DNA from: Ruminococcus albus 7 = DSM 20455
Lineage (GTDB): Bacteria; Bacillota; Clostridia; Oscillospirales; Ruminococcaceae
Length of the DNA stretch: 32,000 nucleotides
Assembly: GCF_000179635.2 (NCBI RefSeq)
Contig: NC_014825.1
Coordinates: 240,001 to 272,000 of the forward strand
Reading direction: 5' to 3'
The notes under the pieces were generated by a model. It saw only the letters and a list, made by a program, of their open reading frames with translations. It searched no databases and was not told the DNA's origin. Within the stretch, counting starts at the first letter, position 1. Each line of letters starts with the position of its first letter. Of this stretch, positions 10,601 through 30,828 are shown one piece after another. The position numbers were made by a program, and so were the translations under genes.

Positions 10601-13600
10601 GCTACGATTCCTCCATCGTCATATAAGTATTGGTTCAGTTCCATAATAACCTCATGGAGCTGTCCCTCAAATCGGCGGTCAATGCCTTTGAATCCGCCAT
10701 TATTCTTGAAAGCACCCTGTTCAAACATCTGCTCATCAAGCACAGCTTCTTCAAGCATGACCTTCTCTATACGTTTCAGCCAGTCAAGCTGAACCTTGTT
10801 AAACTTGTGGTTCTGTCTCAGCTTTGCAAAGGCATTTTTTACCCTTGTTTCATGACTTATCAGCGCCGAGCCAATAGCCTGCTGCCGAACAAATGCGATA
10901 ATATCCGCAACAATATCTTCGTTTGTCATTTCATTCCAAGCTGTATTAAGCTGTTTTTCCGTGAAATCATGACGGTCAAGCTCCATTTTCAGCTCTTTGA
11001 GAGTAGCCCTTGTCAACTCAGAGGGGCGAGTGCATACGATTTTGAGTGCATTTATTTCATTAAGGTTCTCCACAACAAATTTTCTGAATGCTTCAATATA
11101 GTCTTCGGGTTTGCTTGCCTTGCCGTAACCTCTTTCATGTGATACGACCTCATCATCATGATCGTCTATTACAACTGGACGCTTTCTATGTGTTCTGTCT
11201 TTATCAAGCACAGCAAATGCCTCCGAGCATTCCAAAGCTCTCTTTGTGGAGTCGGCAACTTTGCCGTCATTCAGCTCTTTTGCAAAAGCATTAAGGTCTT
11301 TACCGCCTGTCAGGTATATAAATTGCTCAAGAGCTTTTGCACTGATCTTACGGCTTTTCCTTTGCAGTTTGGCAATAATCAAACTGAGCTGATATGCCTG
11401 TTTGTCCTTCTCAACAACTCTCAAACCGTTAAGTAAGTCCTCAAAGGTAGTCTGGGGATTTGGTGTAACAGGCTTCATATTGCTTACAGGCTCTAAGGTT
11501 TCATAGACACCTACGGGATCATAGATCTCGAAGTGGTCTTTGTCTATCTTACTGCACAATCTCGTAGCTCTGCCGAGCATCTGCTCAAACAGGATACGGG
11601 ACTTGATACGACGCATAAATACAAGATTGACGATCTCAGGCACATCAATACCTGTTGTCAGCAGGTCAACAGTAACAACAACCTTTGGATAGGCTTCATT
11701 CTTAAACTGCCGTATCGCTTCAAGTATCTTCTTTTTATTGCCACCCTCTATGCTTCCGGTGATTTTCTTGACTACATCGTTATCAATACCGTATTTCGAG
11801 TAAATATCTTTCAGTATCTTTACGATAAGGTCAGCATGATCGTCATCGACCGCATAGATAAGCGTTTTGCCCTCACCGTCAGGATTGAAGTCCATAGCGA
11901 TTTCATTAAACACGGCTAAATTGAACTTCTCAGTAATTACGTCCTTATTGAATTTGTCTATTTCAAACTTCATATCGTCCTCAAGCTCATCGCTGTTGAG
12001 GACTTCGCCCGTGTTCGGATCGTAGATTGCGAGCGTTTCACCCTTTTTGTATTCAATGCCGTTATCACGGAGCTTAGTGTGAATATCATGCGGAGCATCG
12101 TGATCGACAAGATAACCGTCAATGACAGCTTCTCTGTAAGAGTATGTAAACACGGGCTTTCCGAAAATCTCTGTTGTATGCAGAGCAGGAGTAGCCGTGA
12201 GAGCAACCTTGACAGCATCGAAATACTCTATAACAGTACGATATTTGCTGATATAATCTTCCTGATTACGATACAGCATTTCATCATCGCTCAATTCTTT
12301 GTCGAGCGTATAACCTCTATGCGCTTCATCAACAACAATCAGGTCATAGTCAGAAACAGAGGGCATTGTGCCATCTTCGTTGTATATCAGGCGTTTTACA
12401 AGGCTCTGGACAGTAGCTATATGTATCTTTGTTTCCTTATCAATCTCTTTTTCGTCAAGACCTTTGATATTATATATCTCGTCGAGAGTCATTAAATCCT
12501 CTATCTTGACTTCCTTGAATACATCGGCTGCCTGTTCACCGAGCGCAGTTCTGTCCACAAGGAACAGAATACGTCTGAAACGGTTGCTCTTGATAAAGCG
12601 GTATATCATTCCGAGGATTGTTCTGGTCTTACCGGTTCCCGTAGCCATAGACAGCAACGCTGTTTTCTTACCATCAATGATAGCATTCTCAGCAGCTTCA
12701 ATAGCTCTTATCTGATATTCACGCAGATTCAGTCCATCTGGATCACGCAGTAAATCGTATGGGGTATTCTGCAACGTCTGATTAGCAGAAGCAATATCCT
12801 TATCGAGCATTTCCATAAGACCGTCAGGGCTAAACCAACCTTGCAGAGCCTTTGGAGTATTCGCACCGTCACGCAGATCAAGAAACCATATTCCGGATTT
12901 CAGCTCTATCTGTTTCAGATACTTTCTGCCATTAGTAGCAAACACAAACGGAACTTTATAGCCGTTCCAATCTTTGATAACATAATCGCTATGCTCCGAT
13001 TTTATCATACGGGCATAGTCTTTGCACTGATAGTCTATTACAGACGGAATATCTATACTTGCTTTCTTTGCTTCAATAATAGCAACAAGTTTAAGCCCCA
13101 CAAAGAGAGCATAGTCCGCATAACCACCCTTAGTTACCGTAGAATCAGTCGGAAACTCAGCGATAGCAAGGTTACGTCCCTTTTGTGGTCTGGTTCCCTT
13201 AGAATAGCGAAGATTGTTTGTATCAACCTCCCAGCCGTACTTTCTGAGCTGATCATCAATGATAATGCGTGTTTCAGCTTCTGAAAGTTCCATTGCTTCT
13301 GTAACTTCTGCTGACTTGTCGGCTCTTTCTTTTGAAGTTGATCCGTCGGTAGCTGTTACAACAGGTTCAGCCTTAGCAGCTTTCGCAAGCTGTTCCTCTA
13401 AGCCTTTGATTATGCTTTCATAGTCAGGGATAGGCTCATTCTGGGGCATAACAAAATCAGGTGCTTTGAAGCTGTAATCACCATACACCTCCATAAACCA
13501 CACAGCAAGCCTGAATGCCATTCTGAGCAAAGATTTAGCGGTATCAACCGAATCCTCATACTTATGAACAGCGTCATTACGCTTCATTCTGAGAGAATAC

Positions 13601-13857
13601 AGTATATCATCGATTCTTCCACCACGATCAATAAGCCCCTCACGTTTCAGGATTTTTATTCTATTGGCGTGAGTATTATCGTAATCAGGCTCGTCAAGCC
13701 CCTCGTTCGCAAATATCTCCTGTACAAGACGTTCAGCAAACATTCCGAGCTTATAAATACACGCATTAGGATCGTTATAGAGATAGCTTTCAGCAGTTTT
13801 TCCGATTTTAGCAAGAGTTCCCCAATACTTGCTCAAAAAATCAAAATTAGATTTCAT
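10597..13857 (-). CDS. hsdR: type I restriction endonuclease/helicase subunit with an extra N-terminal domain (DUF4145-like)
   Basis: 1086 aa. Motifs: helicase motif I (MATGTGKTRT), DEAH box (VVDEAHR), motif VI (QMLGRATR), and a PD-(D/E)XK-like region (YADYALF...IIEAKK). Confidence 0.9.
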   Translation of the reverse strand: MKSNFDFLSKYWGTLAKIGKTAESYLYNDPNACIYKLGMFAERLVQEIFANEGLDEPDYDNTHANRIKILKREGLIDRGGRIDDILYSLRMKRNDAVHKYEDSVDTAKSLLRMAFRLAVWFMEVYGDYSFKAPDFVMPQNEPIPDYESIIKGLEEQLAKAAKAEPVVTATDGSTSKERADKSAEVTEAMELSEAETRIIIDDQLRKYGWEVDTNNLRYSKGTRPQKGRNLAIAEFPTDSTVTKGGYADYALFVGLKLVAIIEAKKASIDIPSVIDYQCKDYARMIKSEHSDYVIKDWNGYKVPFVFATNGRKYLKQIELKSGIWFLDLRDGANTPKALQGWFSPDGLMEMLDKDIASANQTLQNTPYDLLRDPDGLNLREYQIRAIEAAENAIIDGKKTALLSMATGTGKTRTILGMIYRFIKSNRFRRILFLVDRTALGEQAADVFKEVKIEDLMTLDEIYNIKGLDEKEIDKETKIHIATVQSLVKRLIYNEDGTMPSVSDYDLIVVDEAHRGYTLDKELSDDEMLYRNQEDYISKYRTVIEYFDAVKVALTATPALHTTEIFGKPVFTYSYREAVIDGYLVDHDAPHDIHTKLRDNGIEYKKGETLAIYDPNTGEVLNSDELEDDMKFEIDKFNKDVITEKFNLAVFNEIAMDFNPDGEGKTLIYAVDDDHADLIVKILKDIYSKYGIDNDVVKKITGSIEGGNKKKILEAIRQFKNEAYPKVVVTVDLLTTGIDVPEIVNLVFMRRIKSRILFEQMLGRATRLCSKIDKDHFEIYDPVGVYETLEPVSNMKPVTPNPQTTFEDLLNGLRVVEKDKQAYQLSLIIAKLQRKSRKISAKALEQFIYLTGGKDLNAFAKELNDGKVADSTKRALECSEAFAVLDKDRTHRKRPVVIDDHDDEVVSHERGYGKASKPEDYIEAFRKFVVENLNEINALKIVCTRPSELTRATLKELKMELDRHDFTEKQLNTAWNEMTNEDIVADIIAFVRQQAIGSALISHETRVKNAFAKLRQNHKFNKVQLDWLKRIEKVMLEEAVLDEQMFEQGAFKNNGGFKGIDRRFEGQLHEVIMELNQYLYDDGGIVA

Positions 13858-13924
13858 GACGAATCACCTCCATCATAAAGTAACTTCCCATAATACCGTA
13901 CTATGAGAACTTATTATCTATTCT

Positions 13925-13953
13925 ATTATACCACAATTTGCACAATTAGTCAA
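13925..13953 (-). promoter_or_regulatory. hsdRMS promoter TTGACT-17-TGgTATAAT
   Basis: On the minus strand, TTGACT is at 13953-13948, followed by a 17-nt spacer, then TATAAT at 13930-13925. GGAGGTG RBS precedes the ATG at 13857. Confidence 0.6.
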
Positions 13954-14119
13954 TTGTCATACAGCGAAAAAAATATAGTTTCACACCGAGCTGATTGATT
14001 CATAAGTATCTGAAACAAGCTATAGATCATAGATATTAGATTATTCCATTCATCGCTACATCAACTATTTTCTGTAGAAAAAACGATAATTTTCTGTCGC
14101 GTTATGATAATTTTCTTGC

Positions 14120-15235
14120 ATGGAAAAGTTCATCTATTTTTCTGAGGTGGCATATGCTTGGTTTACGATGAGCCGCGAGGTTGAAGTAAAAGGAATCAAA
14201 ATGGTAGCAACAGTCCCTGAAGATTTACAGATTTCTGTTGGTAAGATTACTGCTACCAAGAACCTTAATGACACAGATAGCTTTTTGGCTGATTTAAGCA
14301 GCGGAAAGGCGATTGCTCCAACGGAAAATATCATGTGGTCGAACACTGTAAATTTAAGCCAGTATTATGAATTTGGTCGCTTAATTCCTGCTTCATCCTC
14401 TAAAGGAACGAATATATTCTTTACTCCCGATGCAACAGAAGAAGGTAAAAATGTTGCAAGAAATGCAAAATATATACAAGCAGCAACAGGATTGACGCCT
14501 ACAACTAGCACTTCTAGTATGATGGCAACACTTCATGCTAGAACGGGTGCCGCTGATGCATGGGCGGCTCCAACTGGAACGGGTTATACTCAAGCTGTAA
14601 ACTACATGGATACGCAGGATGATGGATATTATGTTGATATTCCCGTATGGATTAGAACTTCCACCACTGAAAATGTTGATCTTAAAGTTGAGGGCTTTGT
14701 AATTCCTAAGGATGCAACTAATAAAGGTTTAAAGGATGCAACAGCGGCTGAACTGTATAAGGCTACCCGTGTAGCCATCTTACCTGCTGCTGGCGATACA
14801 ACTAATGCCGAAAAAGGTACTAAAGGTGTAATTGACCTTAAGGATGGTGCTGCTACTGATACACCTGGTTGGAGTAGTGTTACCTCAATAATTGACTATT
14901 ATGGCACCAGTGCAATGCACGGGATAGCTAATGGTGCAGTTAAAGCTGCAGTAGACGCAAATGGTACAGAGAATCACGTTGAGGGTGGTTCAGAAACCAA
15001 TGCTGATAATTGGTCATTAATTTACGAAGCTGCTACTGTATATAATGGAACAGCGAGCATTGCAACAATTGCAGGTGCGACAGCTGGTGCAGAGTATGGA
15101 ACAGCAACACAGCTTTGGATTCGTGTATGGCTTGAAGGCGAAGATCCCGAGTGTTGGAACAAGAATGCTGGGCAGGATTGGAATATATCGCTTAAGTTCT
15201 CAAAGATTGAACCTGCCGCACCATCTGATCCGTAA
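14120..15235 (+). CDS. TasA/camelysin-like secreted-protein paralog c1, leader truncated
   Basis: The frame is open from 14111 (FSCMEKFIYFSEVAYAWFTMSREVEVKGIKM...). YAWFT-MS-E resembles the end of a SipW-type signal peptide. Blocks DDGYYVDIPVWIRTS and LWIRVWLEGEDPECWNKNAGQDWNISLKF are shared with c2 and c3. No Shine-Dalgarno precedes the ATG at 14120. Confidence 0.6.
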   Translation: MEKFIYFSEVAYAWFTMSREVEVKGIKMVATVPEDLQISVGKITATKNLNDTDSFLADLSSGKAIAPTENIMWSNTVNLSQYYEFGRLIPASSSKGTNIFFTPDATEEGKNVARNAKYIQAATGLTPTTSTSSMMATLHARTGAADAWAAPTGTGYTQAVNYMDTQDDGYYVDIPVWIRTSTTENVDLKVEGFVIPKDATNKGLKDATAAELYKATRVAILPAAGDTTNAEKGTKGVIDLKDGAATDTPGWSSVTSIIDYYGTSAMHGIANGAVKAAVDANGTENHVEGGSETNADNWSLIYEAATVYNGTASIATIAGATAGAEYGTATQLWIRVWLEGEDPECWNKNAGQDWNISLKFSKIEPAAPSDP

Positions 15236-15430: not shown

Positions 15431-17464
15431 ATGGCTGAAATAACTATAATACAGCCAAGAGAACAGCCCCGCAGAAAACTTCGCTGCGGGGCATATTGCA
15501 GGGTATCGACGGGGCGAGAGGAACAGCAGCACTCATATGAGGCGCAGCGGCTGTGGTTCATGACGCTGCTCGGTGGCTCGCAGACAGAGGAGCTTGTGGA
15601 CATCTATGCGGACATAGGGATAAGCGGAACGACCACCGACCGCCCTGAGTTCATGCGTATGCTTAACGATTGCAGGCATGGGTGCATTGACCGCATACTC
15701 ACCAAGTCGATCAGCCGCTTCGCCCGCAACACCCGTGATTGTCTTGCAATACTGCGTGAGCTTCGGGAACTGGGCGTGACGGTTTTCTTCGAGAAAGAGA
15801 ACATCGACACTGCGAGAACTGCCGACGAAATGATGATAGCGATTATGGGCGGTCTTGCACAGGAAGAATCGCAGTCCATTTCGAGGAACATTCGCTGGAG
15901 CCTGCACCGCAAAATGGCGGCAGGGACGCTCGGCGTGGCGCGTGTACCTTACGGTTATGACAAGGTGAACGGCAGACTTGTGATAAATGATGAACAGGCG
16001 GCGGTCGTCCGGCGCATTTTTTCGCTGTATCTCGGCGGAATGGGTGCAAGACGAATCGCCGCTCTTTTCAATTCCGAGGGTCTGCCTGCACCCGAATCCA
16101 CCGCATGGAACAATATCACTGTCTACAAAATGCTCGCACAGGAGATGTATCTCGGTGATATTCGCTGGCAGAAAACAGTGTCCGTGTTTATGGGGACAAG
16201 CCACCCGAACACGGGGCAAGCTAACAGCTTCTATGTCAGTGGAAGTCATGAGCCGATAATTGACCGAGAGACTTTTGAATCGGCGCAGGCTTTGCGGTTA
16301 AAAAGCGTTCGTCCCGCCGAAAAGACCAATAACAGCCCGTTTCGTCAAAAGGTTGTCTGCGGAATTTGTGGGAGGTCGTACTACTTGATTGGTGCGGCTC
16401 GCCCTTACTGGCAATGCACGAGGCGATTTGATCTTGTCAAGCCCTGCACGAACGATATTCTGCATGATGAAACGCTTTCCGACTTGTGGCGAGTGATATG
16501 GACAAAGTTCACCAACCATGCCGATGATGTTCTCCTGCCGCTTATTGGGCAGCTTGAAAGGATCGCTGAAAAGGTCTCTGAAAATGCAGAAAGCGGTCGC
16601 CTTGACGAAATAATGCAACAGAAAATGACCCTTCGCAAAATGTGTGCGGAGGGTCTTATTTCTTATGGGGAAGTCATAACCTCCGAGACCGAGCTTAACG
16701 CCGAGTATTCCTCCTTGATTGAGAATTGCAGAAAACAAAAGGAGCATAATTCACTTTTGATAAATGAGGTAAAAACGCTCTACAAAGCGGTTTCCGCTGC
16801 TCATAGTGATTGTTGTGCCGATATTCTCAAATCTATCCGATTTGCCCACGATACCGCTGATTTTGAGCTTGTGAGCGGCATACATATCATTATGAGCATC
16901 CCGAAGCATAAAAAACGAATAATTACATCACATAATCCTATAAATGCGATTCGCTCACTTGCCTTGTGCGGAGGCTGCGGAGGAAGGCTTTCACGGCGCA
17001 AGGTCGAGGGTGTATATCTCTGGAAATGCTCAAACCGCCGTTGTTCTTATTGGAGGTCAAAGCATACGGACGAAGATATGATAGGCAACACAACTGACGT
17101 TTTTTCAAAGGTATACGCTGACCCACGCTTAGTAAGTCTTAAATGTTCCATGACGGAATATCGTCCAACGGAAAGTGTTCTCACAATGCTGGAAAGCCTT
17201 GAAAAGCTGATAGCTTTGGGAGAAAACGCTGAAATGCTTATCAAAGCGGCGGTTCATCTTGCAGAGGAAAAAATCGGCTGCATTGAGTACAACGTGAAAA
17301 CCGAGCAGACCGCGCATATAGAGGACGCTATCAAGAATTGTGTGGAGCTGCCGGAGTTTCTAATACAAGCGGTCAGGCACATCTATGTCACGCCCGACAG
17401 AGTGCGTGTTAAGTTCATCAACGGAAAGACGGTCAAAAGTGAAAGGAGCACCAACCATGAGTAA
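15431..17464 (+). CDS. large serine recombinase A1 with C-terminal extension homologous to the zinc-ribbon/C-terminal part of B2
   Basis: Contains YCRVST catalytic-serine motif, SISRFARNT and LAQEESQSISRNIRW, plus recombinase and Zn-ribbon regions (CGICGRSY...WQC). A second Cys cluster (CGGCGGRLS...WKCSNRRC) appears after residue about 505. AAAGGAG RBS. Confidence 0.85.
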   Translation: MAEITIIQPREQPRRKLRCGAYCRVSTGREEQQHSYEAQRLWFMTLLGGSQTEELVDIYADIGISGTTTDRPEFMRMLNDCRHGCIDRILTKSISRFARNTRDCLAILRELRELGVTVFFEKENIDTARTADEMMIAIMGGLAQEESQSISRNIRWSLHRKMAAGTLGVARVPYGYDKVNGRLVINDEQAAVVRRIFSLYLGGMGARRIAALFNSEGLPAPESTAWNNITVYKMLAQEMYLGDIRWQKTVSVFMGTSHPNTGQANSFYVSGSHEPIIDRETFESAQALRLKSVRPAEKTNNSPFRQKVVCGICGRSYYLIGAARPYWQCTRRFDLVKPCTNDILHDETLSDLWRVIWTKFTNHADDVLLPLIGQLERIAEKVSENAESGRLDEIMQQKMTLRKMCAEGLISYGEVITSETELNAEYSSLIENCRKQKEHNSLLINEVKTLYKAVSAAHSDCCADILKSIRFAHDTADFELVSGIHIIMSIPKHKKRIITSHNPINAIRSLALCGGCGGRLSRRKVEGVYLWKCSNRRCSYWRSKHTDEDMIGNTTDVFSKVYADPRLVSLKCSMTEYRPTESVLTMLESLEKLIALGENAEMLIKAAVHLAEEKIGCIEYNVKTEQTAHIEDAIKNCVELPEFLIQAVRHIYVTPDRVRVKFINGKTVKSERSTNHE

Positions 17465-19055
17465 TATAAAGACAGCGGCAAACGTGACACTTATCCCTGC
17501 AAAGGAGCAGGCAAACAGCGTATTTACAGGCAAAAAGCTGAAAGTGGCGGCTTATTGCAGGGTCAGCACAGACGAAACCGAGCAGATGAACAGCTTCGGA
17601 GTACAGATCGCGTACTACACCGACTACATCGGCAGCCGACCCGACTGGCAGATGATCGGCATTTTTGCGGACGAGGGCATCAGCGGCACGCAGACCGAGA
17701 ACCGCACACAGTTCAACCGCATGATCGAGCTGTGCCGCAAGGGGCGCATCGACCTGATACTCTGCAAGTCGATCAGCCGTTTTGCGCGGAATACCGTCGA
17801 TTGCCTTGATTTCGTGCGTGAGCTGAAAAGGCTGAATGTGGCGGTACAGTTTGAAAAGGAGAACATCAACACGCTGTCGGTCAGTTCGGAGTTTGCGATA
17901 ACGCTGTACGCAAGCTTCGCGCAGGCGGAAAGCGAGAGCATCAGCCGCAACATAACATGGGGTATCGAAAAGTCGTTCAAGGAAGGCAACGTGCGGTATC
18001 AGATGAGATACACGCTGGGGTATCGGCTGGTGGACGGCGTTCCGCAGATAATCGAGGACGAAGCCGTGATCGTGAGGGAGATTTTCAGCCTTTTTGCGGG
18101 CGGTATGAGTCTGCGAAAGATAGCAGAAAGACTAACCTCTGAGGGTGCAGCCCGCAGAAATGGCAGCACCGTCTGGAACCGCGACCATGTGAACTCTATC
18201 CTCAAAAACGAAAAATATGTGGGAGACGCCATTTTGCAGAAGTACTATACGGTCGATTGCCTGACCCACACCTGTGCGAAGAACAACGGTCAGAAGCCAA
18301 AGTATCTGGTGCAGAACTGTCACGCCCCGATCATCGACCGCGAAACTTGGGACAGGGTGCAGCTGGAGTTGTCCCGTCGCAGTGCTATGACGAAAGGCAA
18401 CGCTCGCGGGGGACGTTACCGCACTGAATACGCCCTGAGCGAGCTGCTCGTCTGCGGCAGCTGCGGCTGCAATTACAAGCGTGTGCTGTGGAAAAGTGGC
18501 ACCGGCAAGCGTGCCGTGTGGCGCTGCAAAAGCACTCTTGACGGTGGTAAGGCGAGGTGCGATTCGCCCAGCCTGCACGAGGAAGCACTGCACAGCGCGA
18601 TAGTGAGGGCGATAAACGAGCAGATACTTGACAGTAGCGGCTTTGATAGACAGTCTGCTCTTTCCGCAGATACCCTTGAATCCGAAAACGCCGACCTTGA
18701 ACGCAGGATAGCTTCGGTCAGTGCTCGCCTTGGAGAAATAGAAGTTGAGCGTAACCGCCTGCTTGCGGATATTTCTGCTATTCCTGCCGACGTTCTTGGT
18801 AGCAAGTTAAAGCTCCTGCACACGGAGGAACAGGAGCTGAAATCCAAACTTGATGAACTGAACAGCAAGCGCGATTCGGGGCGGCATGATCTGTACCGTA
18901 TCAAGGCGGCGAGGAATCTGACGCATGGTATTGAAGCGCTCGGGGAGTTTGATAATGATCTGGTCAGACAGGTTGTTGAGGAGATCACTGTTAAGAGCGC
19001 TGATAAGGTCGTTGTGAAGTTTTGTGGTGGCGAGAAGGTAACAGTTAAGGTTTAA
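17457..19055 (+). CDS. large serine recombinase A2 (ortholog of B1)
   Basis: Start MSNIKTAANVTLIPAK lies 8 nt after AAAGGAG and overlaps the A1 stop by 8 nt. Motifs AAYCRVSTDE, SISRFARNT and FAQAESESISRN, and Zn ribbon CGSCGCNY...WRC. Confidence 0.85.
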   Translation: MSNIKTAANVTLIPAKEQANSVFTGKKLKVAAYCRVSTDETEQMNSFGVQIAYYTDYIGSRPDWQMIGIFADEGISGTQTENRTQFNRMIELCRKGRIDLILCKSISRFARNTVDCLDFVRELKRLNVAVQFEKENINTLSVSSEFAITLYASFAQAESESISRNITWGIEKSFKEGNVRYQMRYTLGYRLVDGVPQIIEDEAVIVREIFSLFAGGMSLRKIAERLTSEGAARRNGSTVWNRDHVNSILKNEKYVGDAILQKYYTVDCLTHTCAKNNGQKPKYLVQNCHAPIIDRETWDRVQLELSRRSAMTKGNARGGRYRTEYALSELLVCGSCGCNYKRVLWKSGTGKRAVWRCKSTLDGGKARCDSPSLHEEALHSAIVRAINEQILDSSGFDRQSALSADTLESENADLERRIASVSARLGEIEVERNRLLADISAIPADVLGSKLKLLHTEEQELKSKLDELNSKRDSGRHDLYRIKAARNLTHGIEALGEFDNDLVRQVVEEITVKSADKVVVKFCGGEKVTVKV

Positions 19056-19091
19056 TATTTTATCATCTTTGCGGTCATCTCTTTTTCAAAA

Positions 19092-20171
19092 GTGGAATAT
19101 GCTTGGTTTACGATGAGCAAGGAAGTTGAAGTTACAGGAATTAAGATGACAGCTTCAGTTCCTGAGAATATTCAAGTTTCACTTGGTGCTGGTACAAATG
19201 GTACAGCAGGTTTAACAGGCGCTTCGTTTGTGGAAGCAAACGATGGTTCAACTCGTACACTTACTGTCACAACTCCTAGTGTAGCAGACGGAACAACAGA
19301 TTGGACTAATACTGTTGCAATATCCGATTACTATACTTTTGGTCGTTTGACTCCTGCTACATCAAAAGATGGCAATGATATATTCTTTACTTCTGATGCT
19401 ACTAGAGCTGGTCGTGCGCTGTTACAAGACACTTATGATGCAAATCAAAAAGCACTTACTGGTAAGAGTTATGCGGCATTCGTTCAAGCAGATACAGCTG
19501 CAACAAGTAAATATCAGGCATGGACAGAGCCTAATGATGTAACTGGTGCTTCAATGACCACAACCACAAAGGGTGCTACTACTAATGTGACTATTGCGGA
19601 TATTGATAAGACTGGTGGAGGTTACTATGTTGACATTCCTGTATGGTTTAGAACATCTATTACGGGTGCGGAAAATGAGAATGTTCAGCTTGCTGTAATC
19701 GCAACAATTACTCCTAAAAAGACAGGTGCTACTGCTGATGCAGTAACTACGCCTGATTTGTATCTTGCTGCTCGATGTGCATTGATTCCTAGTGGTGGAA
19801 GTGCAGTTGGAGCAATTATGGATAGCACAACAAAGTATTACCATACTGAAGAGGGCGCTGTAGATAGTGTTAATGGTTATGCTCCAGCATCTGCGTATAC
19901 AGTAAATGCTGCAACCGATAATTCGACTGCTCCTACATGGGTTCAGGTAGATCCTGTTACACAAGCCACAACTGCGGCTATAAATGATGGAATTGCTGGT
20001 GATGGTGAGGCGGTAGTCCTTGTGCCTAAGTCTACATCAACAAGTGGCGAATATGGCTCTGCTGCCGCTTATACTTTACGTGTTTGGCTTGAAGGCGAAG
20101 ATGTTAACTGCTGGGATGAAACTGCCGCTCAGGACTTCCAGATTGATCTTAGATTCATAAGAAAGAGCTAA
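19092..20171 (+). CDS. TasA/camelysin-like paralog c2, leader truncated by the A2 stop codon
   Basis: The frame is open from 19056, directly after the A2 TAA and in the same frame (YFIIFAVISFSKVEYAWFTMSKEVEVTGIKM...). No RBS. C-terminus is YTLRVWLEGEDVNCWDETAAQDFQIDLRF. Confidence 0.6.
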   Translation: MEYAWFTMSKEVEVTGIKMTASVPENIQVSLGAGTNGTAGLTGASFVEANDGSTRTLTVTTPSVADGTTDWTNTVAISDYYTFGRLTPATSKDGNDIFFTSDATRAGRALLQDTYDANQKALTGKSYAAFVQADTAATSKYQAWTEPNDVTGASMTTTTKGATTNVTIADIDKTGGGYYVDIPVWFRTSITGAENENVQLAVIATITPKKTGATADAVTTPDLYLAARCALIPSGGSAVGAIMDSTTKYYHTEEGAVDSVNGYAPASAYTVNAATDNSTAPTWVQVDPVTQATTAAINDGIAGDGEAVVLVPKSTSTSGEYGSAAAYTLRVWLEGEDVNCWDETAAQDFQIDLRFIRKS

Positions 20172-20271: not shown

Positions 20272-21534
20272 TTAGCTTTCGATCTTTGCAAACTTCAGAG
20301 CAATTGCCCAATCCTGTCCAGCATTATCATTCCAGCATTCAAAGTCTTCACCATCAAGCCAAACTCTTATGATGAGCTTCTTAGCAGCACCATACTGTCC
20401 ATTAGTTGTACTACCTGCAACAGTTGCTACATTAGACCAGGCAGAAGCAGCAGAAGTAGGTGTTATGCAAGTGTAGTCAGTATAAGTACCAGCATAAGTA
20501 TCAACCACTCCATCACCATCGGGATCAGTTGCTGTTGTAGCTGCTGCACTTACGCCAGCATACATCTGCCCCTCAGCACCCTTGGCATACTTTGGCTGAT
20601 TTGCAGCAGTAAGTGCTGACGGAAGAGTTCTGCCAGTAGTAGCAAGGTTAGCAGAGTCGACAACAGATGTAAGAGTATTAGCCCACGGATTTGCAACGCC
20701 TGTAATAGCTGAAAATGTTCCATCTGTAACATTAGCTGATGTATCCCATGCATCTTTCAAAGGAATTATATTATTAGTGTTTGCAACTGCTGCATCACCT
20801 GCGGTACAAGCAACAGCACCAGTAGAAGCATTTTCAGAAACTGTCTCACCATCAAGGATTGCAACCCTAATTGCTCTGTACAGTTCAAGATCTGTTTCCT
20901 TGTTTGATGCGCCTTCGCCAGTATTTAAACTTCCAGGTAAAACATAGCCATCAACAGAAAGATTTATAGCTTCATTAGAAGAGGTTCTAAGCCATATAGG
21001 AATGTCAACATAATAACCATCATCTTTTGTTTTATTCCAAGTATCTGCCTGAGCATAAGCACCTGTACCTACAACGTTCCAGTTATCAGCTGTTGAAGTC
21101 TTAGCATGCAGCGTAGTTTTGTAAGTTGTTCCAGTGCCAGCGTCCGCAACAGGTGTGAGTTTATCTGTCGCTTGATAATAAGAAGCATTACCCTTAACTG
21201 TTTTACCAACACCATTTGCATCAGGCGTAAAGAATATCTCTCTGCCGTCATATGAAGATGCAGGTATCAATCTACCAAACTGGTAATAAGCACTTATATC
21301 TGCACTATTTGACCAATCCCACGATTTTTCAGGAGCAGAAGCACCGCCATTGTCAGCAGCACCAGCCGATGCAGAATACAGAACACCAGTACTAGCTCCA
21401 AGAGAAACACCATTCTCATCAACTTCAGCAGAATTGGGTGTATCGACATCTGCTAATCTTCCTAACGAAATCTGCAGGTCTTCTGGTACGGTTGCAGTCA
21501 TCTTAATACCTGTGACTTCAACTTCCCTGCTCAT
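20272..21534 (-). CDS. TasA/camelysin-like paralog c3, leader truncated
   Basis: The frame is open up to 21588 (AVLRLCIYTVKAIYAWFTMSREVEVTGIKMTATVPEDLQISLG...), with an in-frame TAG at 21589-21591. No start codon or RBS upstream of the internal Met. Confidence 0.6.
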   Translation of the reverse strand: MSREVEVTGIKMTATVPEDLQISLGRLADVDTPNSAEVDENGVSLGASTGVLYSASAGAADNGGASAPEKSWDWSNSADISAYYQFGRLIPASSYDGREIFFTPDANGVGKTVKGNASYYQATDKLTPVADAGTGTTYKTTLHAKTSTADNWNVVGTGAYAQADTWNKTKDDGYYVDIPIWLRTSSNEAINLSVDGYVLPGSLNTGEGASNKETDLELYRAIRVAILDGETVSENASTGAVACTAGDAAVANTNNIIPLKDAWDTSANVTDGTFSAITGVANPWANTLTSVVDSANLATTGRTLPSALTAANQPKYAKGAEGQMYAGVSAAATTATDPDGDGVVDTYAGTYTDYTCITPTSAASAWSNVATVAGSTTNGQYGAAKKLIIRVWLDGEDFECWNDNAGQDWAIALKFAKIES

Positions 21535-21852
21535 GGTAAACCAGGCATATATCGCTTTAACGGTATAGATACATAGCCTTAAAACCGCCTAATATCGTCA
21601 TTTTTCACACTTTATTTGAACGTTCAAAAAAGTGTGTTTTCGTAGATGACCGAGCCTATTTTGTACCGACTTTCATTTTCAATATCTAAAATTGATATTT
21701 CGTATATCAATCATTCATAGCTGTGATATTGAACGCAAAAAATAATAATATAATAATTTTAACCTCGCATTTCTTATTCATCGTGACAAAATATCGGTGC
21801 ATTATTTATCCATAGTGAACTTGTAATTTGTTTCGATAAAAGCACAAAGCAA

Positions 21853-21890
21853 TCTCCCCTTGTATCATTGAGAAATAATACAAGGGGAGA
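21853..21890 (-). terminator. terminator hairpin after the AAA-ATPase gene
   Basis: tctccccttgtat ... atacaaggggaga forms a 13-bp perfect stem with a 12-nt loop, 27 nt beyond the stop at 21917. Confidence 0.65.
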
Positions 21891-21916
21891 AATTATCTCT
21901 GTGAAATTTTGAAAGT

Positions 21917-23518
21917 TTACTTTGTGACCGTTTCTATCGTGCAAGTATGAACCTTAGTCTTTTCATCATAGTTGATGCCGACAAGTATGATCTTACCTTT
22001 ACGGTTCTTTAGGATAGTCGGATATTCACGGTCTTTGATCTGCTGAATGGCTGCCGTGTCAGACTTGTTCCATTTCAGCTCGATAACAAGTGTCGGATCG
22101 GTAGCCTTACGAGGAATGAAAACAACATCAGCGATACCCTTACCGCTTGGAAGCTCCTCGATCTTCATGTAGTTATCAACACAAACGATATAGGCAAACT
22201 TGATAACATACCTGAGTGCCTGCTCGTCATTGTAATAGGTGGGAGCATAGTTCATCATACGAATTTCGTCAATGGCTTTCGCAACAGCTTCTTCATTTCC
22301 GCTTATTGTATCTTGCAGGAGCTTTTTGGAATTACTGAGAAGATCGACCAGCACTTCATGCTTGGTCATTTTAAGGATATTGGAAAATTCAAGCCTGATT
22401 TCGTCGTTCGGGATATGAACAAACTCCCTGATGATCTCGTCCTCGTCATCGCCCTCTCCGAGTATCTCAACTTTCTGTTCGTATGCCAGATAGCCGAGGT
22501 GAACAAGTAAGGTCAGAACATCGTCTTTCAGCTTGAATCCTGTTACGTCATTCTTAAAACTGCTTGTGTTGATCTCAATGGTCTCGCCAGCAATAAGCTG
22601 TGCAATATCCCCTTGCAGACCTTCTTCGTCCATTTCAATATAGTCAAGCAGATTATCCGCCGCCGAGGTCTGTCTCCAATACGATGTGTATTTTTTCTTT
22701 TTGGCAGCACAGATAACCGAATACGGGTTGTAAACAGACTGAACATCACCAACAGTATAGCCGTCATACCATTTCTTCATCTTGCGGAAGTCAGCGTGAT
22801 ATTTGTCGCATATCTTATGAACATCTTCTTCCAAAAAACCAGTATATTTTGCAAATTCATCAGGCTCTATGATTGAATGTTCCTCAAAATCAGATATAGC
22901 AGACTGTGAACCATCTTTCTTTATAGGCAGGATACCTGTCATATATGCTGCGGCAAATATCTTGGGCGTTGTTGAACTGCTTTTAAAAAGCATACGCAAG
23001 AACAGTAGGTATTCTTTGGAATTGACCATAGACTCACGAATGGGTGCGTCCCACTCGTCTATTATCATCACAATTTTTCTGCCTGTTTTTTCTACTGCGT
23101 TAATAAGCGTTTGATCGAATGATGAACCTTTTATGATGTTTGTATCAGTAGCAAGGATTTCATTTTCAACGTTGTCCTTAATGAATTGAATCAGCTTCTC
23201 AGGTTCAACTTTTTCAAGCAAATTTGTCATATCAAGATAAATAACATGATATTTATTGATATTACTCTCATAGGTTCTATCGCTGCTGATCTCATACTTT
23301 TCAAAAAGGCTGTGAGAATCGCAAGTGTAGTCATAGTAGGCACAAAGCATTTTAGCAGCATAAGACTTGCCGAAACGGCGCGGACGGCTGATACACACCA
23401 ATTTGCTCGGAGTATTGATACGCTGATTTATCAAGGCGATAAGACCTGTCTTATCAATGTAGTCACCATTCAGCACTTCCTCAAATCCGCTGTTGCCGGG
23501 ATTGAGATATGTTCCCAT
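21917..23518 (-). CDS. AAA-ATPase-like / PD-(D/E)XK nuclease fusion protein (AAA-ATPase_like + PDDEXK_9 architecture)
   Basis: Start MGTYLNPGNSGFEE follows GGAGGTG; the track ORF extends to 23584. Walker A PRRFGKSYAAK, Walker B VMIIDEWD, and C-terminal nuclease core GIADVVFIP...LVIELKW. Confidence 0.75.
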   Translation of the reverse strand: MGTYLNPGNSGFEEVLNGDYIDKTGLIALINQRINTPSKLVCISRPRRFGKSYAAKMLCAYYDYTCDSHSLFEKYEISSDRTYESNINKYHVIYLDMTNLLEKVEPEKLIQFIKDNVENEILATDTNIIKGSSFDQTLINAVEKTGRKIVMIIDEWDAPIRESMVNSKEYLLFLRMLFKSSSTTPKIFAAAYMTGILPIKKDGSQSAISDFEEHSIIEPDEFAKYTGFLEEDVHKICDKYHADFRKMKKWYDGYTVGDVQSVYNPYSVICAAKKKKYTSYWRQTSAADNLLDYIEMDEEGLQGDIAQLIAGETIEINTSSFKNDVTGFKLKDDVLTLLVHLGYLAYEQKVEILGEGDDEDEIIREFVHIPNDEIRLEFSNILKMTKHEVLVDLLSNSKKLLQDTISGNEEAVAKAIDEIRMMNYAPTYYNDEQALRYVIKFAYIVCVDNYMKIEELPSGKGIADVVFIPRKATDPTLVIELKWNKSDTAAIQQIKDREYPTILKNRKGKIILVGINYDEKTKVHTCTIETVTK

Positions 23519-23563
23519 AAAAATCACCTCCGTGATCGTAACACGATACACTTTATCTATTCT

Positions 23564-23592
23564 ATTATACCCTATATCAAACAAAATTGCAA
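23564..23592 (-). promoter_or_regulatory. promoter TTGCAA-17-TATAAT for the AAA-ATPase gene
   Basis: On the minus strand, TTGCAA is at 23592-23587, followed by a 17-nt spacer, then TATAAT at 23569-23564. Confidence 0.55.
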
Positions 23593-23651
23593 GAGGTCAC
23601 AACTAATTTCTTCCGAAAAATCGTAGGCTGTGACCTCCTGCATATGTAACA

Positions 23652-25289
23652 TTACTTCTCTACCGCCACATTCATTTCATGCCCATCCTTGAAGATGATC
23701 TGCACCTCGTTCTTGGACAGTACCCTGATAACCTCAATGACCTTGCGGACGGTCACATCGTCATATTCGGCAAGGTGGCAGTCATGACGGCGCAGCTCCT
23801 CACCGACAGCCATGAGAGCGTATTTCTTCTCATCACTCAGCTTGGCTTTGGTCTGCATATCGTCAAGCTGGGTTTTCAGGTAGGCTTCCTCGTCGTTCAG
23901 GCTCTCAAAGTTTTTGTCGAGGGCATCTTCATCGACTGCACCGCTTGTGATCTGACGGACAAGTGAATCCCTCTCGTCCTCTATTTCTTCAAGGCGTTTC
24001 TGTATTTTGGCAGTCTGTTTCTGCATATCGCCATTGTCGCCGATGACAGCAAGGATATTCTGCTCCATTCGGGCAAGCATATCGCCGTTTCGGGAATAGA
24101 CAGCGTTCAGAGCCTTGACGATAGCATTTTGCAGGCTTTCTTCGCTGATTGAGGGAGAATGTTTGCAGTATTTACTGCCGTGATCGAGCCTGCTGATACA
24201 CCGCCACACGATACGCTTGTGACCGTGTGAAGTCCATGTTACCCTTCGGTATGCCGTTCCGCACTCTCCGCATATTAGAATATCGGTCAGGGCGTATTTG
24301 CTTGAATACTGCCCCAATTCCGTCCTTGCCTTTGCAGAGCGTTTCTTGATCGCTCCACGCTTCGCAAGTTCCTGCTGAACACGATTATATGTATCACGGT
24401 CGATAATGGCAGGGTGGCAGTCATGAACGATGTACTTATTTTTCTCGCCGTTGTTCTTGACACGCTTGTGGGTGATGCAGTCGATGGTGTAGCTTTTTTG
24501 GAGGATTGCATCGCCTGCGTATTTCTCATTTTTGAGGATGAAATTCACATTCGCCCTGTTCCATGTTGACGAACCGCTTCGGCGTTTGATACCCTCCGAC
24601 TGCAATTGATCTGCGATGCCCTGCATACTCATACCGTCAAGAAACATGACATAGATACGGCGGACAATCTCCGCTTCTTCCTCCACTATATACGGCACAC
24701 CGTCCTCGCCCATGCGGTAGCCGAGTGTCTTGTCGAGAACATACTTGACCTTGCCCTCACGGAAAGATTTCTCGATACCCCACGATACATTTTTGCTGAT
24801 ACTCTCGCTCTCTGCCTGAGCGAATGAACCATACAGCGATATGATAAATTCGCTGTTCATCATCATGGTGTTAATGTTCTCTTTCTCAAAAATAACGCCA
24901 ATGCCGAGCAGTCTCAGTTCACGGATATATTCAAGACAATCCACAGTATTTCGGGCGAAACGGCTGATTGACTTGCACAGCACAAGGTCGATTTTCTTTT
25001 GCTGACACTTGCGTATCATCTTGTTGAACTGCTTGCGGTTCTTGGTCTGCGTACCGCTGATGCCCTCGTCTGCGAATATGCCTGCAAGCGTCCATTCGGG
25101 GTTGGAGTTGATGAGGTTCGTGTAGTATTCTATCTGCACCTGATAGCTGTTCGCCTGTTCCTCGCTGTCGGTGGATACACGGCAGTAGGCAGCCACACGA
25201 ATTTGCCTGTATTTGGACTGTTTCAGCTCGGCAGGCGAGAGGGCAGGTATCATCGTAACATTGGAAGCCATATCGTTATTCTTCGGCAT
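23652..25289 (-). CDS. large serine recombinase B1
   Basis: Motifs AAYCRVSTDSEEQ, SISRFARNTVDCL and FAQAESESISKN, Zn ribbon CGECGTAY...WRC and a coiled-coil tail. GGAGG RBS. Aligns along its whole length with A2. Confidence 0.9.
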   Translation of the reverse strand: MPKNNDMASNVTMIPALSPAELKQSKYRQIRVAAYCRVSTDSEEQANSYQVQIEYYTNLINSNPEWTLAGIFADEGISGTQTKNRKQFNKMIRKCQQKKIDLVLCKSISRFARNTVDCLEYIRELRLLGIGVIFEKENINTMMMNSEFIISLYGSFAQAESESISKNVSWGIEKSFREGKVKYVLDKTLGYRMGEDGVPYIVEEEAEIVRRIYVMFLDGMSMQGIADQLQSEGIKRRSGSSTWNRANVNFILKNEKYAGDAILQKSYTIDCITHKRVKNNGEKNKYIVHDCHPAIIDRDTYNRVQQELAKRGAIKKRSAKARTELGQYSSKYALTDILICGECGTAYRRVTWTSHGHKRIVWRCISRLDHGSKYCKHSPSISEESLQNAIVKALNAVYSRNGDMLARMEQNILAVIGDNGDMQKQTAKIQKRLEEIEDERDSLVRQITSGAVDEDALDKNFESLNDEEAYLKTQLDDMQTKAKLSDEKKYALMAVGEELRRHDCHLAEYDDVTVRKVIEVIRVLSKNEVQIIFKDGHEMNVAVEK

Positions 25290-27673: not shown

Positions 27674-27786
27674 AAACATCAGCTCCTGTTTTTACTGTTC
27701 AGATTTTGATACATATTTACGGTTTAGATGACCTGTTGCTTTTTGAATACGGAACAAGCAATTCGCCTGTTCCGTACCAATTCCGT

Positions 27787-28240: not shown

Positions 28241-28288
28241 TGTTCCTCCTTCCCCTTGTCGGGGAGACATGGAATACCCTCATCTTCA

Positions 28289-28317
28289 ATGTTACACTTT
28301 AAAGCGGTGAAAGTCAA
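28289..28317 (-). promoter_or_regulatory. candidate promoter TTGACT-17-TAACAT for the small-gene/LSR operon
   Basis: On the minus strand, TTGACT is at 28317-28312 and TAACAT at 28294-28289. Confidence 0.35.
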
Positions 28318-28741: not shown

Positions 28742-28747
28742 TTAAAC

Positions 28748-30671: not shown

Positions 30672-30708
30672 TAAAAGACCTCCTTCACATACAGCCTTTT
30701 TCACCCCA

Positions 30709-30807: not shown

Positions 30808-30828
30808 GCACAGCACATTTCCCGATAC

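What the first reader, a model, noticed from the sequence alone, without database searches (positions are those of the whole stretch)
19040..19120. LSR stop codon abuts the truncated leader in the same frame: candidate attachment-site junction, with a look-alike at c1
**Junction.** The A2 recombinase ends at TAA 19053-19055. The c2 leader remnant (YFIIFAVISFSK...) starts at the very next codon, in the same reading frame.

**Similarity to c1.** I aligned the 66 nt starting at that TAA, without gaps, against the 66 nt starting at the TAA at 14108 upstream of c1:
- c2: taatattttatcatctttgcggtcatctctttttcaaaagtggaatatgcttggtttacgatgagc
- c1: taattttcttgcatggaaaagttcatctatttttctgaggtggcatatgcttggtttacgatgagc

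By my count 50 of 66 positions are identical, and the stop codon sits at the same position in both.

**Similarity to B1.** The sequence after the B1 stop (minus strand, from 23654: taatgttacatatgcaggaggtcacagcctacgatttttcgg...) shares taat.tt..at, ggtca and tttttc with these, then diverges.

**Interpretation.** This is what an element-derived arm, a crossover and then target DNA would look like. The TasA-like leader would be the target of module A, and c1 would carry a scar of a related event. The B1 similarity is weak and could be chance.
Basis: inference. Interest (0 to 1): 0.65.

Follow-up and report, generated by a model that had tools for sequence, protein, structure and literature searches.

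The report
Serine-recombinase junction decapitating a secreted-protein gene
The sequence right after the A2 recombinase gene is a genuine recombination joint: a recombinase-linked DNA arm fused at a single TA to a secreted-protein gene that has lost its export signal, and two sister genes nearby are cut at the very same TA by two other mobile elements.

Summary
A2 stops at 19053-19055, and 50/66 positions match the c1 site. The 42 nt after the stop are not a leader remnant. They are a recombinase-linked "P arm" that travels with A2 in five other genomes, each time next to a different gene body.

Homology to intact genes of this family starts exactly at TA 19098-19099, the Tyr codon of ...ST|YAWFT. 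A c2 orthologue with 91% identity carries a full signal peptide up to that TA.

The partner joint (orphan leader-TA-P' arm) exists in sister assemblies and relatives. In three relatives the two joints flank a canonical 5.3 kb module of cassette gene + A1 + A2.

c1's look-alike arm is the right end of a separate conjugative element, 94-97% conserved between genomes against 82-86% for A1/A2. The B1-proximal similarity is chance. The real B joint is at c3's 5' end (21548-21549). There, runs of apparently the same strain show three alternative partners, all joined at TA.

"TasA-like" is unsupported: no Pfam, NCBIfam or fold match. Leaders and bodies are mosaic across the family, so these recombinases may drive cassette exchange. 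That reading is not proven, and the A joints are invariant in all assemblies seen.

The parts
15431..17464 (+). A1, large serine recombinase (677 aa)
   Evidence: It has Resolvase, Recombinase and Zn_ribbon_recom domains. It is conserved at 80-82% aa identity next to A2 in L011 and L117.
17457..19055 (+). A2, large serine recombinase. Public gene calls give 532 aa; the longest ORF starts at 17385.
   Evidence: It has the three LSR domains. It aligns over its full length to SPbeta SprA/YokA structures. The same 532-aa protein occurs on 15 contigs, always followed by c2.
19053..19097 (+). P arm: the recombinase-proximal half-site (A2 stop codon plus 42 nt), ...GGTCATCTCTTTTTCAAAAGTGGAA
   Evidence: It is conserved in register with the A2 3' end in L005, L011, L112 and L114. 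It is not homologous to any leader. The motif AGATGAC lies at +18..24 from the TA on the reverse complement, as in the P' arms (inference from the sequences).
19098..19099 (+). TA crossover dinucleotide, the first two bases of the Tyr codon of YAWFT
   Evidence: BLAST homology to the intact orthologue L091 starts at 19098. TA is the only sequence common to the attB-, attL- and attR-type joints.
19098..20171 (+). c2: leaderless body of a secreted beta-rich protein gene. Its first 21 nt (19098-19118) are the conserved core TATGCTTGGTTTACGATGAGC.
   Evidence: It is 91% identical to P0123, which carries a 32-aa leader. The core occurs three times in the window against 0 expected. No Shine-Dalgarno-like sequence lies before GTG 19092 or ATG 19110 (read).
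14108..14152 (+). P* arm: the right end of the conjugative element that fills window 1-14152
   Evidence: It matches the P arm at 29/45, unique in the window. It is near-identical in L005, L114 and L011, next to different bodies. The high-identity ICE block ends here.
14153..15235 (+). c1: leaderless cassette body joined to P* at TA 14153-14154
   Evidence: Core match. The protein begins ..FIYFSEVA|YAWFT, as at the equivalent site in L005, L006 and L114. The 371-aa form, which includes arm-encoded residues, occurs on 26 contigs, so the joint is invariant.
1..14152 (+). Right-hand part of an integrative conjugative element: HTH, ImmA/IrrE-like peptidase, UmuC, YolD, two hypotheticals, then a type I R-M block at 4556-13857
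   Evidence: Pfam hits. Identical or near-identical copies continue into T4SS genes in L005-L010 and L114. Nucleotide identity between genomes is 94-97%, against 82-86% for A1/A2 and about 76% for the backbone.
20272..21549 (-). c3: cassette body joined at TA 21548-21549 to the B-type arm
   Evidence: The same body, at 100% identity, is joined at this TA to three alternatives. These are its own leader L3 (L002, L103, L105), a MacB-like N-terminal fragment (L092), or the B arm (window, L109, L123, L124).
21550..21594 (-). PB arm: the right half-site of element B (...GTATCTATACCGTTAAAGCGATA-TA)
   Evidence: Its reverse complement (TATCGCTTTAACGGTATAGATAC) mirrors the P'B arm ACAGGCTCTAACGGTTTAGATGACC found after the MacB-N fragment. 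It is joined at TA to three different right partners.
21550..32000 (-). Right-hand part of element B: AAA-ATPase/PD-(D/E)XK gene, LSR triplet B1/B2/B3, DUF5906 and CHC2 primase genes
   Evidence: Pfam hits. The B3-B2-B1 triplet architecture recurs in about 60 of 80 related loci.

Best explanation
**What it is.** Window 19053-19120 is an attR-type recombination joint made by large serine recombinases.
- The 42 nt after the A2 stop are the recombinase-proximal half-site (P arm) of the A1/A2 module.
- Strand exchange took place at TA 19098-19099.
- Everything to the right is the body of a secreted-protein gene (c2) that lost its promoter, start codon and about 35 codons of signal peptide.

**How the module looks in its canonical form** (seen in relatives):
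- The module is about 5.3 kb: P' arm, promoter and complete cassette gene, A1, A2, P arm.
- It inserts into the leader-coding region of a resident paralogue.
- That leaves an orphan leader that stops at TAA (the TA plus the first A of P') and a silent, leaderless body.
- The module supplies its own complete gene just inside the left joint.

**The other two joints in the window.**
- c1 is this module's own cassette position. It is now headed by the right end (P* arm) of a separately acquired conjugative element.
- c3 is headed by the right arm of a third element, B.
- So three paralogues are cut at the identical TA by three related elements.

**Shown:**
- the joints;
- the TA as the only shared sequence;
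- the intact alleles;
- conservation of the arms;
- the canonical arrangement in relatives;
- the alternative partners at c3.

**Inferred:**
- A1/A2 made the joints at c2;
- c2 and c1 are not translated;
- the present inverted position of the partner joint in this strain arose by a later inversion.
For: **Recombinases.** A1 and A2 have all three LSR domains, and A2 aligns to SprA.

**P arm belongs to the element.** It is conserved with A2 in five loci while the bodies differ.

**Intact alleles.**
- The c2 orthologue P0123/L091 has a full leader. Protein alignment (91%) and DNA homology both begin at the Tyr codon/TA 19098.
- 102 of the 120 best homologues have a leader ending ...ST(Y/F)AWFT.

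**Partner joint.** The orphan leader-TA-ACTCGTTGATACCAAATAGTTGACGG joint is present:
- 2.6 kb from c2 in L001, L002 and L103-105;
- in L011, L112-114 and six metagenome contigs;
- always leader-TA-P'.

**Arm symmetry.** P' shares AAATAGNTGA at +14..23 with the reverse complement of P/P*.

**Canonical arrangement.** It is seen in L114 and L117 (and in L011, with one extra silent cassette), on the same backbone as this strain. Direct attL and attR lie 5.3 kb apart around cassette gene + A1 + A2.

**Element B shows the same design.** The same TA chemistry is seen at 100% sequence identity across runs. PB-TA is joined to c3, to MacB-C or to a sigma-factor upstream region. MacB-N-TA is joined to P'B or to c3.

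**c1.** The match to the c1 arm is statistically unique in the window.
Against: - No attP (P-TA-P') and no excised circle were found in the fetched loci, in one metagenome scan or in two viral-contig scans.
- The A2-P-TA-c2 and P*-TA-c1 joints are invariant in all 15-26 contigs that carry them, so there is no sign that A is currently active.
- In this strain the A-type attL lies in inverted orientation relative to attR. The locus is therefore not a simple excisable insertion and needs an extra inversion whose mechanism is unknown.
- The intact c2 allele comes from another strain and has a leader different from the local orphan leader.
- The far (left) end of the conjugative element was not reached.
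- No recombination directionality factor was identified.
Confidence: 0.8

Rival explanations
1. **Programmed cassette switching (shufflon-like).** On this reading the P, P* and PB arms are permanent 'silent-site' half-sites. The recombinases routinely exchange gene bodies between a leader-bearing expression site and the silent sites, by inversion or non-cognate joint resolution. The junction at 19098 would then be a working switch site rather than a fossil insertion boundary.
For: - Two orientation classes of the A1/A2-containing segment exist between the same flanks. R. albus-type and L005/L006/L112 form one class; L011/L114/L117 form the other. The breakpoints fall at the TA sites.
- In the L002 state, c1 and c2 both lie inverted relative to the leader-bearing c3, so one inversion would bring either of them behind a leader.
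- 35 of 59 homologue pairs with at least 90% identical leaders have bodies under 60% identical, and 20 of those have 100% identical leaders.
- The L3 leader is identical on c3 and on an unrelated body, P0037.
- At c3, three partners occur in runs of one strain, and contigs break exactly at TA/TATG.
- About 8% of the homologue clusters are leaderless.
Against: - No alternative partner of c1 or c2 appears in 15-26 contigs of this strain.
- The required pairing (leader-TA-body with P-TA-body) is not a canonical large-serine-recombinase reaction (established knowledge of attP/attB/attL/attR selectivity).
- The orientation classes could stem from rare inversions between about 110-nt leader repeats by homologous recombination before the conjugative element arrived.
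- The mosaicism can also arise from insertion followed by excision between joints of different element copies.
Confidence: 0.3
2. **No recombinase involvement at c2.** On this reading the c1/c2 upstream similarity is ordinary paralogy: a duplicated upstream region of tandem gene copies. The truncations would come from homologous recombination or decay, and A2 would merely lie next door.
For: - c1 and c2 are paralogues in tandem orientation.
- Their conserved 5' coding region extends about 100 nt (D4).
- No activity of A was seen.
Against: - The arm stays attached to the A2 stop codon at a fixed 45 nt in five genomes while the bodies differ.
- The second arm stays attached to the end of a 94-97% conserved conjugative element while the bodies differ.
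- Matching orphan leader-TA-P' joints exist.
- All breaks fall on one dinucleotide.
Confidence: 0.04
3. **c2 naturally starts here** (GTG 19092 or ATG 19110) and encodes a cytoplasmic, leaderless variant, so nothing is truncated.
For: - Gene callers predict 352-359 aa products.
- Short 1.3-kb contigs (L003, L004) span exactly the A2 3' end to the end of c2 and might be transcripts.
Against: - No ribosome-binding sequence lies before either start.
- The 91% orthologue and 102/120 homologues carry the leader.
- The conserved YAWFT upstream of the ATG is coding sequence in the intact genes.
Confidence: 0.03

Closest known systems
Large-serine-recombinase integration of prophages and ICEs into protein-coding genes (SPbeta SprA in spsM, the skin element SpoIVCA in sigK, A118-type integrases in comK, Tn5397 TndX, Tn4451 TnpX)
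   Same: - The recombinase gene sits at the end of the element, next to its P arm.
- The crossover is 2 bp.
- The target gene is split.
- attL and attR are hybrids of element and target half-sites.
- A2 aligns over its full length to SprA.
   Different: - The target is the signal-peptide/mature junction of a multicopy, hypervariable gene family, so many attB sites exist per genome.
- The element carries its own complete paralogue immediately inside attL.
- The crossover TA is palindromic.
- No attP, excised form or directionality factor has been seen.
SCCmec CcrA/CcrB, a two-recombinase cassette chromosome, and the tandem accretion of SCC elements
   Same: - Two adjacent LSR genes form the mobility module.
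- Related elements pile up at joints left by earlier ones. Examples are the tandem orphan leaders in L011 and L120, and the conjugative element abutting the A module.
   Different: - The A1 and A2 genes overlap by 8 nt (A2 start 17457, A1 end 17464). A1 is 42% identical to B3 and A2 is 51% identical to B1. The A1/A2 pair was never compared with Ccr proteins here.
- The target is not a single conserved housekeeping gene end.
- Elements sit in both orientations, with inversions between them.
Surface-protein cassette switching by site-specific inversion (Mycoplasma pulmonis vsa, M. agalactiae vpma/Xer1, Ureaplasma mba; papers listed). Also Campylobacter fetus sap and Lactobacillus acidophilus slp, from general knowledge.
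   Same: - One promoter plus leader serves several promoterless, leaderless bodies.
- The recombination site lies in or next to the 5' coding region.
- Bodies sit in both orientations around the recombinase genes.
- Leaders and bodies are mosaic between strains.
   Different: - Those systems use tyrosine (Xer-like) recombinases or RecA, not large serine recombinases.
- They are chromosomal and not carried on mobile elements.
- Switching within a clone is documented there, whereas here it is seen only at the B joint.
TasA/CalY/camelysin with SipW-type signal peptides
   Same: The leader end ...STYAWFT resembles the TasA ...GGTWAAFND motif (recalled from memory, a lead only). The proteins are secreted and beta-rich.
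   Different: - There is no Pfam or NCBIfam hit.
- There is no PDB sequence hit with an 87-sequence profile.
- There is no fold match for a confident model, pLDDT 87.7.
- No sipW gene lies in the window.

Membership tests
Large serine recombinase (A1, A2) | N-terminal resolvase catalytic domain plus Recombinase domain plus zinc-ribbon domain | tested here: met
   PF00239, PF07508 and PF13408 all score above their cut-offs in A1, A2, B1 and B3. A2 residues 76-516 align to SprA/YokA chains. Both proteins have the AYCRVST serine motif (read).
LSR attachment-site joint (attR type) | The recombinase-linked arm is conserved with the element, while the DNA beyond the crossover varies with the host or target | tested here: met
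   The arm is conserved over about 45 nt in the window, L005, L011, L112 and L114, with five different bodies.
LSR attachment-site joint (attR type) | An uninterrupted target (attB, the empty site) exists | tested here: met
   For c3 it exists at 100% identity in runs of the same strain. For c2 it exists only as a 91% orthologue in another sample.
LSR attachment-site joint (attR type) | A reciprocal joint (attL: target left half, same dinucleotide, P' arm) exists | tested here: met
   Leader-TA-ACTCGTTGATACCAAATAGTTGACGG was found in 8 fetched loci and 6 metagenome contigs. In this strain it is present but inverted relative to attR.
LSR attachment-site joint (attR type) | The P and P' arms form an imperfect inverted repeat around the crossover | tested here: met
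   B type: TATCGCTTTAACGGTATAGATAC against ACAGGCTCTAACGGTTTAGATGACC. A type: a shared AAATAG(A/T)TGA at +14..23. Both were compared by eye, without a formal statistic.
LSR attachment-site joint (attR type) | An attP or excised circular form is observed | tested here: not met
   No P-TA-P' joint was found in any fetched locus, in the metagenome scan or in two viral scans. Absence from assemblies is weak evidence.
LSR attachment-site joint (attR type) | The recombinase catalyses recombination on these sites | not testable with these tools
   This needs in vivo or in vitro assays.
Integrative conjugative element (left part of the window) | A type IV secretion/conjugation module contiguous with the regulatory and cargo genes | tested here: met
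   This was shown in related loci only. VirB4/TraG-like, PrgI, VirD4-type coupling protein and DUF3801 genes lie next to the identical HTH/ImmA/UmuC block. The window itself starts inside the element.
Invertible multi-cassette switch (shufflon / vsa-type) | Alternative arrangements coexist within a clonal population | tested here: inconclusive
   The A-type joints are invariant in 15-26 contigs. The B-type joint at c3 has three partners, and contigs break at TA. Between genomes there are two orientation classes.
TasA/camelysin (Peptidase_M73) family | Sequence or fold membership | tested here: not met
   There are no Pfam hits for c1, c2 or c3 and no NCBIfam hits. The profile search against PDB gave 0 hits at E<=1. 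Foldseek against PDB gave no match at E<=0.001, and the top hits have TM about 0.1.

The most novel reading that the evidence does not exclude
A family of large-serine-recombinase elements in rumen Ruminococcus acts as a natural cassette-exchange system for a hypervariable secreted-protein family.
- The members range from a 5.3 kb 'cassette gene + two recombinases' module to a conjugative element and a primase-bearing element.
- Each element targets one TA at the signal-peptide/mature junction.
- Each brings its own complete replacement gene just inside attL.
- By recombining non-cognate joints, including P-TA-body with leader-TA-body, they reshuffle leaders and bodies and flip segments. This would be mobile-element-driven antigenic or phase variation.

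In R. albus 7 the same chemistry may even link or separate the 352-kb replicon and the chromosome. The N- and C-terminal halves of one MacB-like gene sit on contigs of 352,646 bp and 3,685,408 bp.
Probability: 0.35. Interest if true: 0.8.

Novelty: new variant of a known kind. Interest (0 to 1): 0.62.

Why it matters
- **For genome engineering.** It defines, at base resolution, the attachment sites of an uncharacterised clade of two- and three-gene serine-recombinase modules: about 45-nt P arms, 26-nt P' arms and a TA crossover. Such sites are directly usable in engineering.
- **For annotation.** Three 'hypothetical' genes on a Ruminococcus albus replicon are silent cassettes decapitated by three different mobile elements at one dinucleotide. 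This corrects how they should be annotated.
- **For biology.** If the wider reading holds, a dominant rumen fibre degrader varies a major secreted protein family through mobile elements that replace and reshuffle gene bodies. No large-serine-recombinase system of this kind turned up in the literature searches run here. A 'megaplasmid' boundary may also be created by the same recombination.

Tried and rejected
- **Exact look-up of the 556-aa A2 ORF** found nothing. The public gene call is the 532-aa form.
- **PLSDB megablast with window 18000-22000** gave no match, so the whole replicon could not be read and the far ends of the elements stay unseen.
- **TasA-likeness.** Pfam, NCBIfam, a PDB profile search and a Foldseek search with a pLDDT 87.7 model were all negative.
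- **B1-proximal similarity** is indistinguishable from chance.
- **attP searches.** All P' arms in the fetched loci and in metagenome contigs have a leader on their left. Exact reconstructed attP patterns for A and B gave 0 hits in viral contigs.
- **A predicted L3 leader::MacB-C fusion protein** (253 or 255 aa) is not in the protein collection. The reciprocal product of the B-arm/c3 joint is therefore unconfirmed.
- **Context of MacB-C** shows only the canonical PB-TA-MacB-C joint.
- **The promoter/terminator scan around the junction** was no better than shuffles.
- **Most A2 relatives at 40-58% identity** are B3-B2-B1 triplets with no cassette gene nearby. The targeting of this gene family is therefore specific to the A2 clade and to this B element.
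- **A model in which the conjugative element and A1/A2 form one unit** was considered and rejected, because their identity levels differ (97% against 86%).
Full report
**1. The observation**

A2 (three LSR domains) ends at TAA 19053-19055.
- Twenty-one of these identities belong to a core, TATGCYTGGTTTACSATGAGC. It occurs exactly three times in the window, at the 5' ends of c1, c2 and c3, with 0 expected by chance.
- The 45 nt upstream of the core match at 29/45. This is the best non-self match of that arm anywhere in the window. Among 929 TAA-anchored 45-mers (mean 13.7, sd 3.1), nothing else reaches it.
- The sequence after the B1 stop scores 14/45, which is the null mean.

**2. What the genes are**

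c1, c2 and c3 have no Pfam or NCBIfam match.
- A search with c2 found 363 homologues at E <= 0.001, mostly from Ruminococcus/Oscillospiraceae metagenomes.
- Of the best 120, 102 begin with a lysine-rich, hydrophobic leader ending ...ST(Y/F)AWFTMS(K/R)EVEV.
- All three window copies lack that leader.
- An AlphaFold model of c2 is confident (pLDDT 87.7, all-beta). It has no PDB fold match, and an 87-sequence profile finds no PDB sequence.
- 'TasA-like' therefore remains an untested resemblance of the leader end only.

**3. Where homology to intact genes starts**
- P0123 is a 389-aa member of c2's 90% cluster, from another sample. It is 91% identical to c2 over 357 residues, and the alignment begins at Y of YAWFT. 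Its 32-residue leader has no counterpart in the 14 codons (YFIIFAVISFSKVE) that follow the A2 stop.
- At the DNA level the match to its contig begins at window 19098.
- A six-sequence alignment shows two classes left of TATGC: leaders and arms. Everything is alignable from the TA rightwards.

The 42 nt are therefore not a leader remnant.

**4. The arm belongs to the recombinase**
- In L005/L006 (metagenomes), L011 (RUG10798, A2 91% identical), L112 and L114, the A2 homologue stops exactly 45 nt before the TA. The intervening arm is conserved (GTCATCT, TTTTYC, GAGGT). The body after the core differs each time.
- In L011 the arm contains an in-frame stop. The shared reading frame is thus a by-product of a fixed arm length, not a coding feature.

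**5. The reciprocal joint**
- In contigs 100% identical to the window (L001 = GCA_000621285.1; L002, L103 and L105 = Logan assemblies), c3 is followed upstream by its own leader L3. Further upstream lies an orphan leader that ends ...ACC-TA-ACTCGTTGATACCAAATAGTTGACGG.
- The same 26-nt P' arm, always preceded by a leader and TA, occurs in L011 (twice, in tandem), in L112-L114 and in six metagenome contigs.
- The TA plus the first A of the arm makes a TAA that terminates the orphan leader.
- P' shares AAATAG(A/T)TGA at +14..23 with the reverse complement of the P arms. This is the half-site symmetry expected of an attP.

**6. The canonical arrangement**

L114 and L117 have the same backbone (EAL, DUF2357, GGDEF genes, about 76% nt identity) as the R. 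albus contigs. L011 shares that backbone and has the same order with one extra silent cassette before A1. The order is:
- backbone
- orphan leader-TA-P'
- promoter and leader L3-TA-body
- A1, A2
- P-TA-body
- then, convergent, body-TA-P* and the conjugative element.

attL and attR are direct and 5.3 kb apart. The unit between them is a complete cassette gene plus two recombinase genes.

In the window (and in L005/L006/L112) the central segment is inverted relative to both flanks:

element, P*-TA-c1, A1, A2, P-TA-c2, then reversed c3-TA-L3, P'-TA-orphan leader, backbone.

One inversion between the L3 site and the P* site relates the two classes. Its mechanism is open. It could be a non-canonical recombinase reaction. 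It could also be homologous recombination between leader repeats before the conjugative element arrived.

**7. c1's look-alike**
- The block HTH, ImmA/IrrE-like peptidase, UmuC, YolD plus two small genes continues into T4SS genes in L005-L010 and L114.
- It is 94-97% identical between genomes, against 82-86% for A1/A2.
- It always ends with the P* arm next to a different body.
- It is therefore a separately and recently acquired conjugative element whose right end mimics the A2-linked arm. In L005/L114 the similarity may extend into what corresponds to the last codons of a recombinase gene (suggestive only).
- The window copy carries a type I R-M block that L005 lacks.

**8. Element B**

The region right of c3 encodes an AAA-ATPase/PD-(D/E)XK protein, the triplet B1/B2/B3, and DUF5906 and CHC2 primase proteins.

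In runs of apparently the same strain, the c3 body (100% identical) is joined at the same TA to one of:
- L3;
- the PB arm (window state);
- the 222-aa N-terminal fragment of a MacB-like permease.

That fragment is otherwise followed by TA-ACAGGCTCTAACGGTTTAGATGACC. This arm mirrors the PB arm and is again followed by a complete cassette gene.

PB-TA is joined in other runs to:
- the FtsX half of the same permease, which is the canonical insertion and the commonest state;
- a site upstream of a sigma-factor gene.

All right-hand partners begin TG, and two share GTTTAC. Several contigs stop exactly at TA or TATG, as expected if alternatives coexist in a sample.

In SRR3925598, unbroken contigs pass through both MacB-N-TA-P'B and PB-TA-c3. 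In the window state, therefore, one B copy is flanked by non-cognate halves. The predicted reciprocal L3::MacB-C product was not found.

**9. Family-wide mosaicism**
- Among the 102 leader-bearing homologues, 59 pairs have leaders at least 90% identical. In 35 of those pairs the bodies are under 60% identical, down to 30%.
- L3 itself is identical on c3 and on the unrelated P0037.
- About 8% of the clusters are leaderless, and two of those start with arm-encoded residues (MGVIFFSEVE|YAWFT).

Recombination at this boundary is thus common in nature.

**10. Interpretation**

The junction at 19053-19120 is an attR-type joint of the A1/A2 module (confidence 0.8).
- The corrections are those listed in sections 2, 3 and 8.
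- Whether the recombinases also run a programmed cassette switch is open (0.3-0.35). The A joints are invariant in every assembly of this strain.

**Identity of the source (inference)**
- Contig lengths of 352,646 and 3,685,408 bp, together with R. albus accessions attached to cluster members, point to Ruminococcus albus 7, replicon pRUMAL02.
- That replicon is cited as carrying a multi-hsdS type I R-M locus (PMC7672463).

No paper describing this recombinase/cassette system was found.

Noticed in passing
window 4556-9170 (inverted repeats 5186-5478/8155-8447, 5291-5415/9022-9146, 6955-7060/8085-8190, 4653-4745/8888-8980): The type I R-M locus has two or three hsdS genes with long inverted repeats, which marks a phase-variable 'epigenetic inverton'. 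PMC7672463 lists R. albus 7 pRUMAL02 among plasmid-borne multi-hsdS loci. No dedicated invertase gene lies between the hsdS genes, and the nearest recombinases are A1/A2.
   Followed up: partly
window ~4512-14060: The whole R-M block (hsdS, hsdM, hsdR) is absent from the otherwise 97% identical copy of the conjugative element in L005. It is therefore a cargo insertion just inside the element's right arm.
   Followed up: partly
window 25276-26172 (-): B2 is a recombinase paralogue that has the Recombinase and zinc-ribbon domains but no catalytic resolvase domain. It is conserved as the middle gene of B3-B2-B1 triplets in about 60 of 80 related loci. It could be an accessory or directionality subunit.
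   Followed up: no
L092, L093-L102, L121, L125-L131 (outside the window); window 21548-21549: The two halves of one MacB-like permease gene are reported on contigs of different size: the N-terminal half on 352,646 bp and the C-terminal half on 3,685,408 bp. With the alternative joints at c3, this suggests that the PB-TA-c3 joint in the window may be the point where a 352-kb replicon and the chromosome separate or fuse. The predicted reciprocal fusion protein was not found.
   Followed up: partly
L011 5011 and 5238; L120 185 and 412: There are tandem orphan leaders, each followed by the same P' arm. This is the footprint of successive insertions of related modules into the cassette gene carried by the previous one.
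   Followed up: partly
homologues P0001-P0120: Identical 32-40-aa leaders sit on bodies that are only 30-55% identical (35 of 59 pairs with at least 90% identical leaders; 20 of the 35 have 100% identical leaders). The boundary is at (Y/F)AWFT.
   Followed up: yes
L003, L004 = window 18849-20202 and 18886-20192: Two 1.3-kb contigs from separate runs start inside the A2 3' end and stop about 20-30 nt past the c2 stop codon (20171). They could be assembled transcripts of a 'silent' cassette or just assembly breaks.
   Followed up: no
window 20077-20369: c2 and c3 are convergent, with only 100 nt between their stops. Their conserved C-terminal coding ends form a 73-nt inverted repeat. The same tail-to-tail cassette pairs recur in L011, L112 and L114.
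   Followed up: no
window 28397-28741: Two pairs of inverted repeats (37 and 47 nt arms) lie upstream of the DUF5906/primase genes of element B. They may be an origin or a regulatory region.
   Followed up: no
L106 3976-6008: In one run (SRR059971) A1 is split into 496- and 128-aa ORFs. This could be a sequencing error or a real frameshift variant.
   Followed up: no
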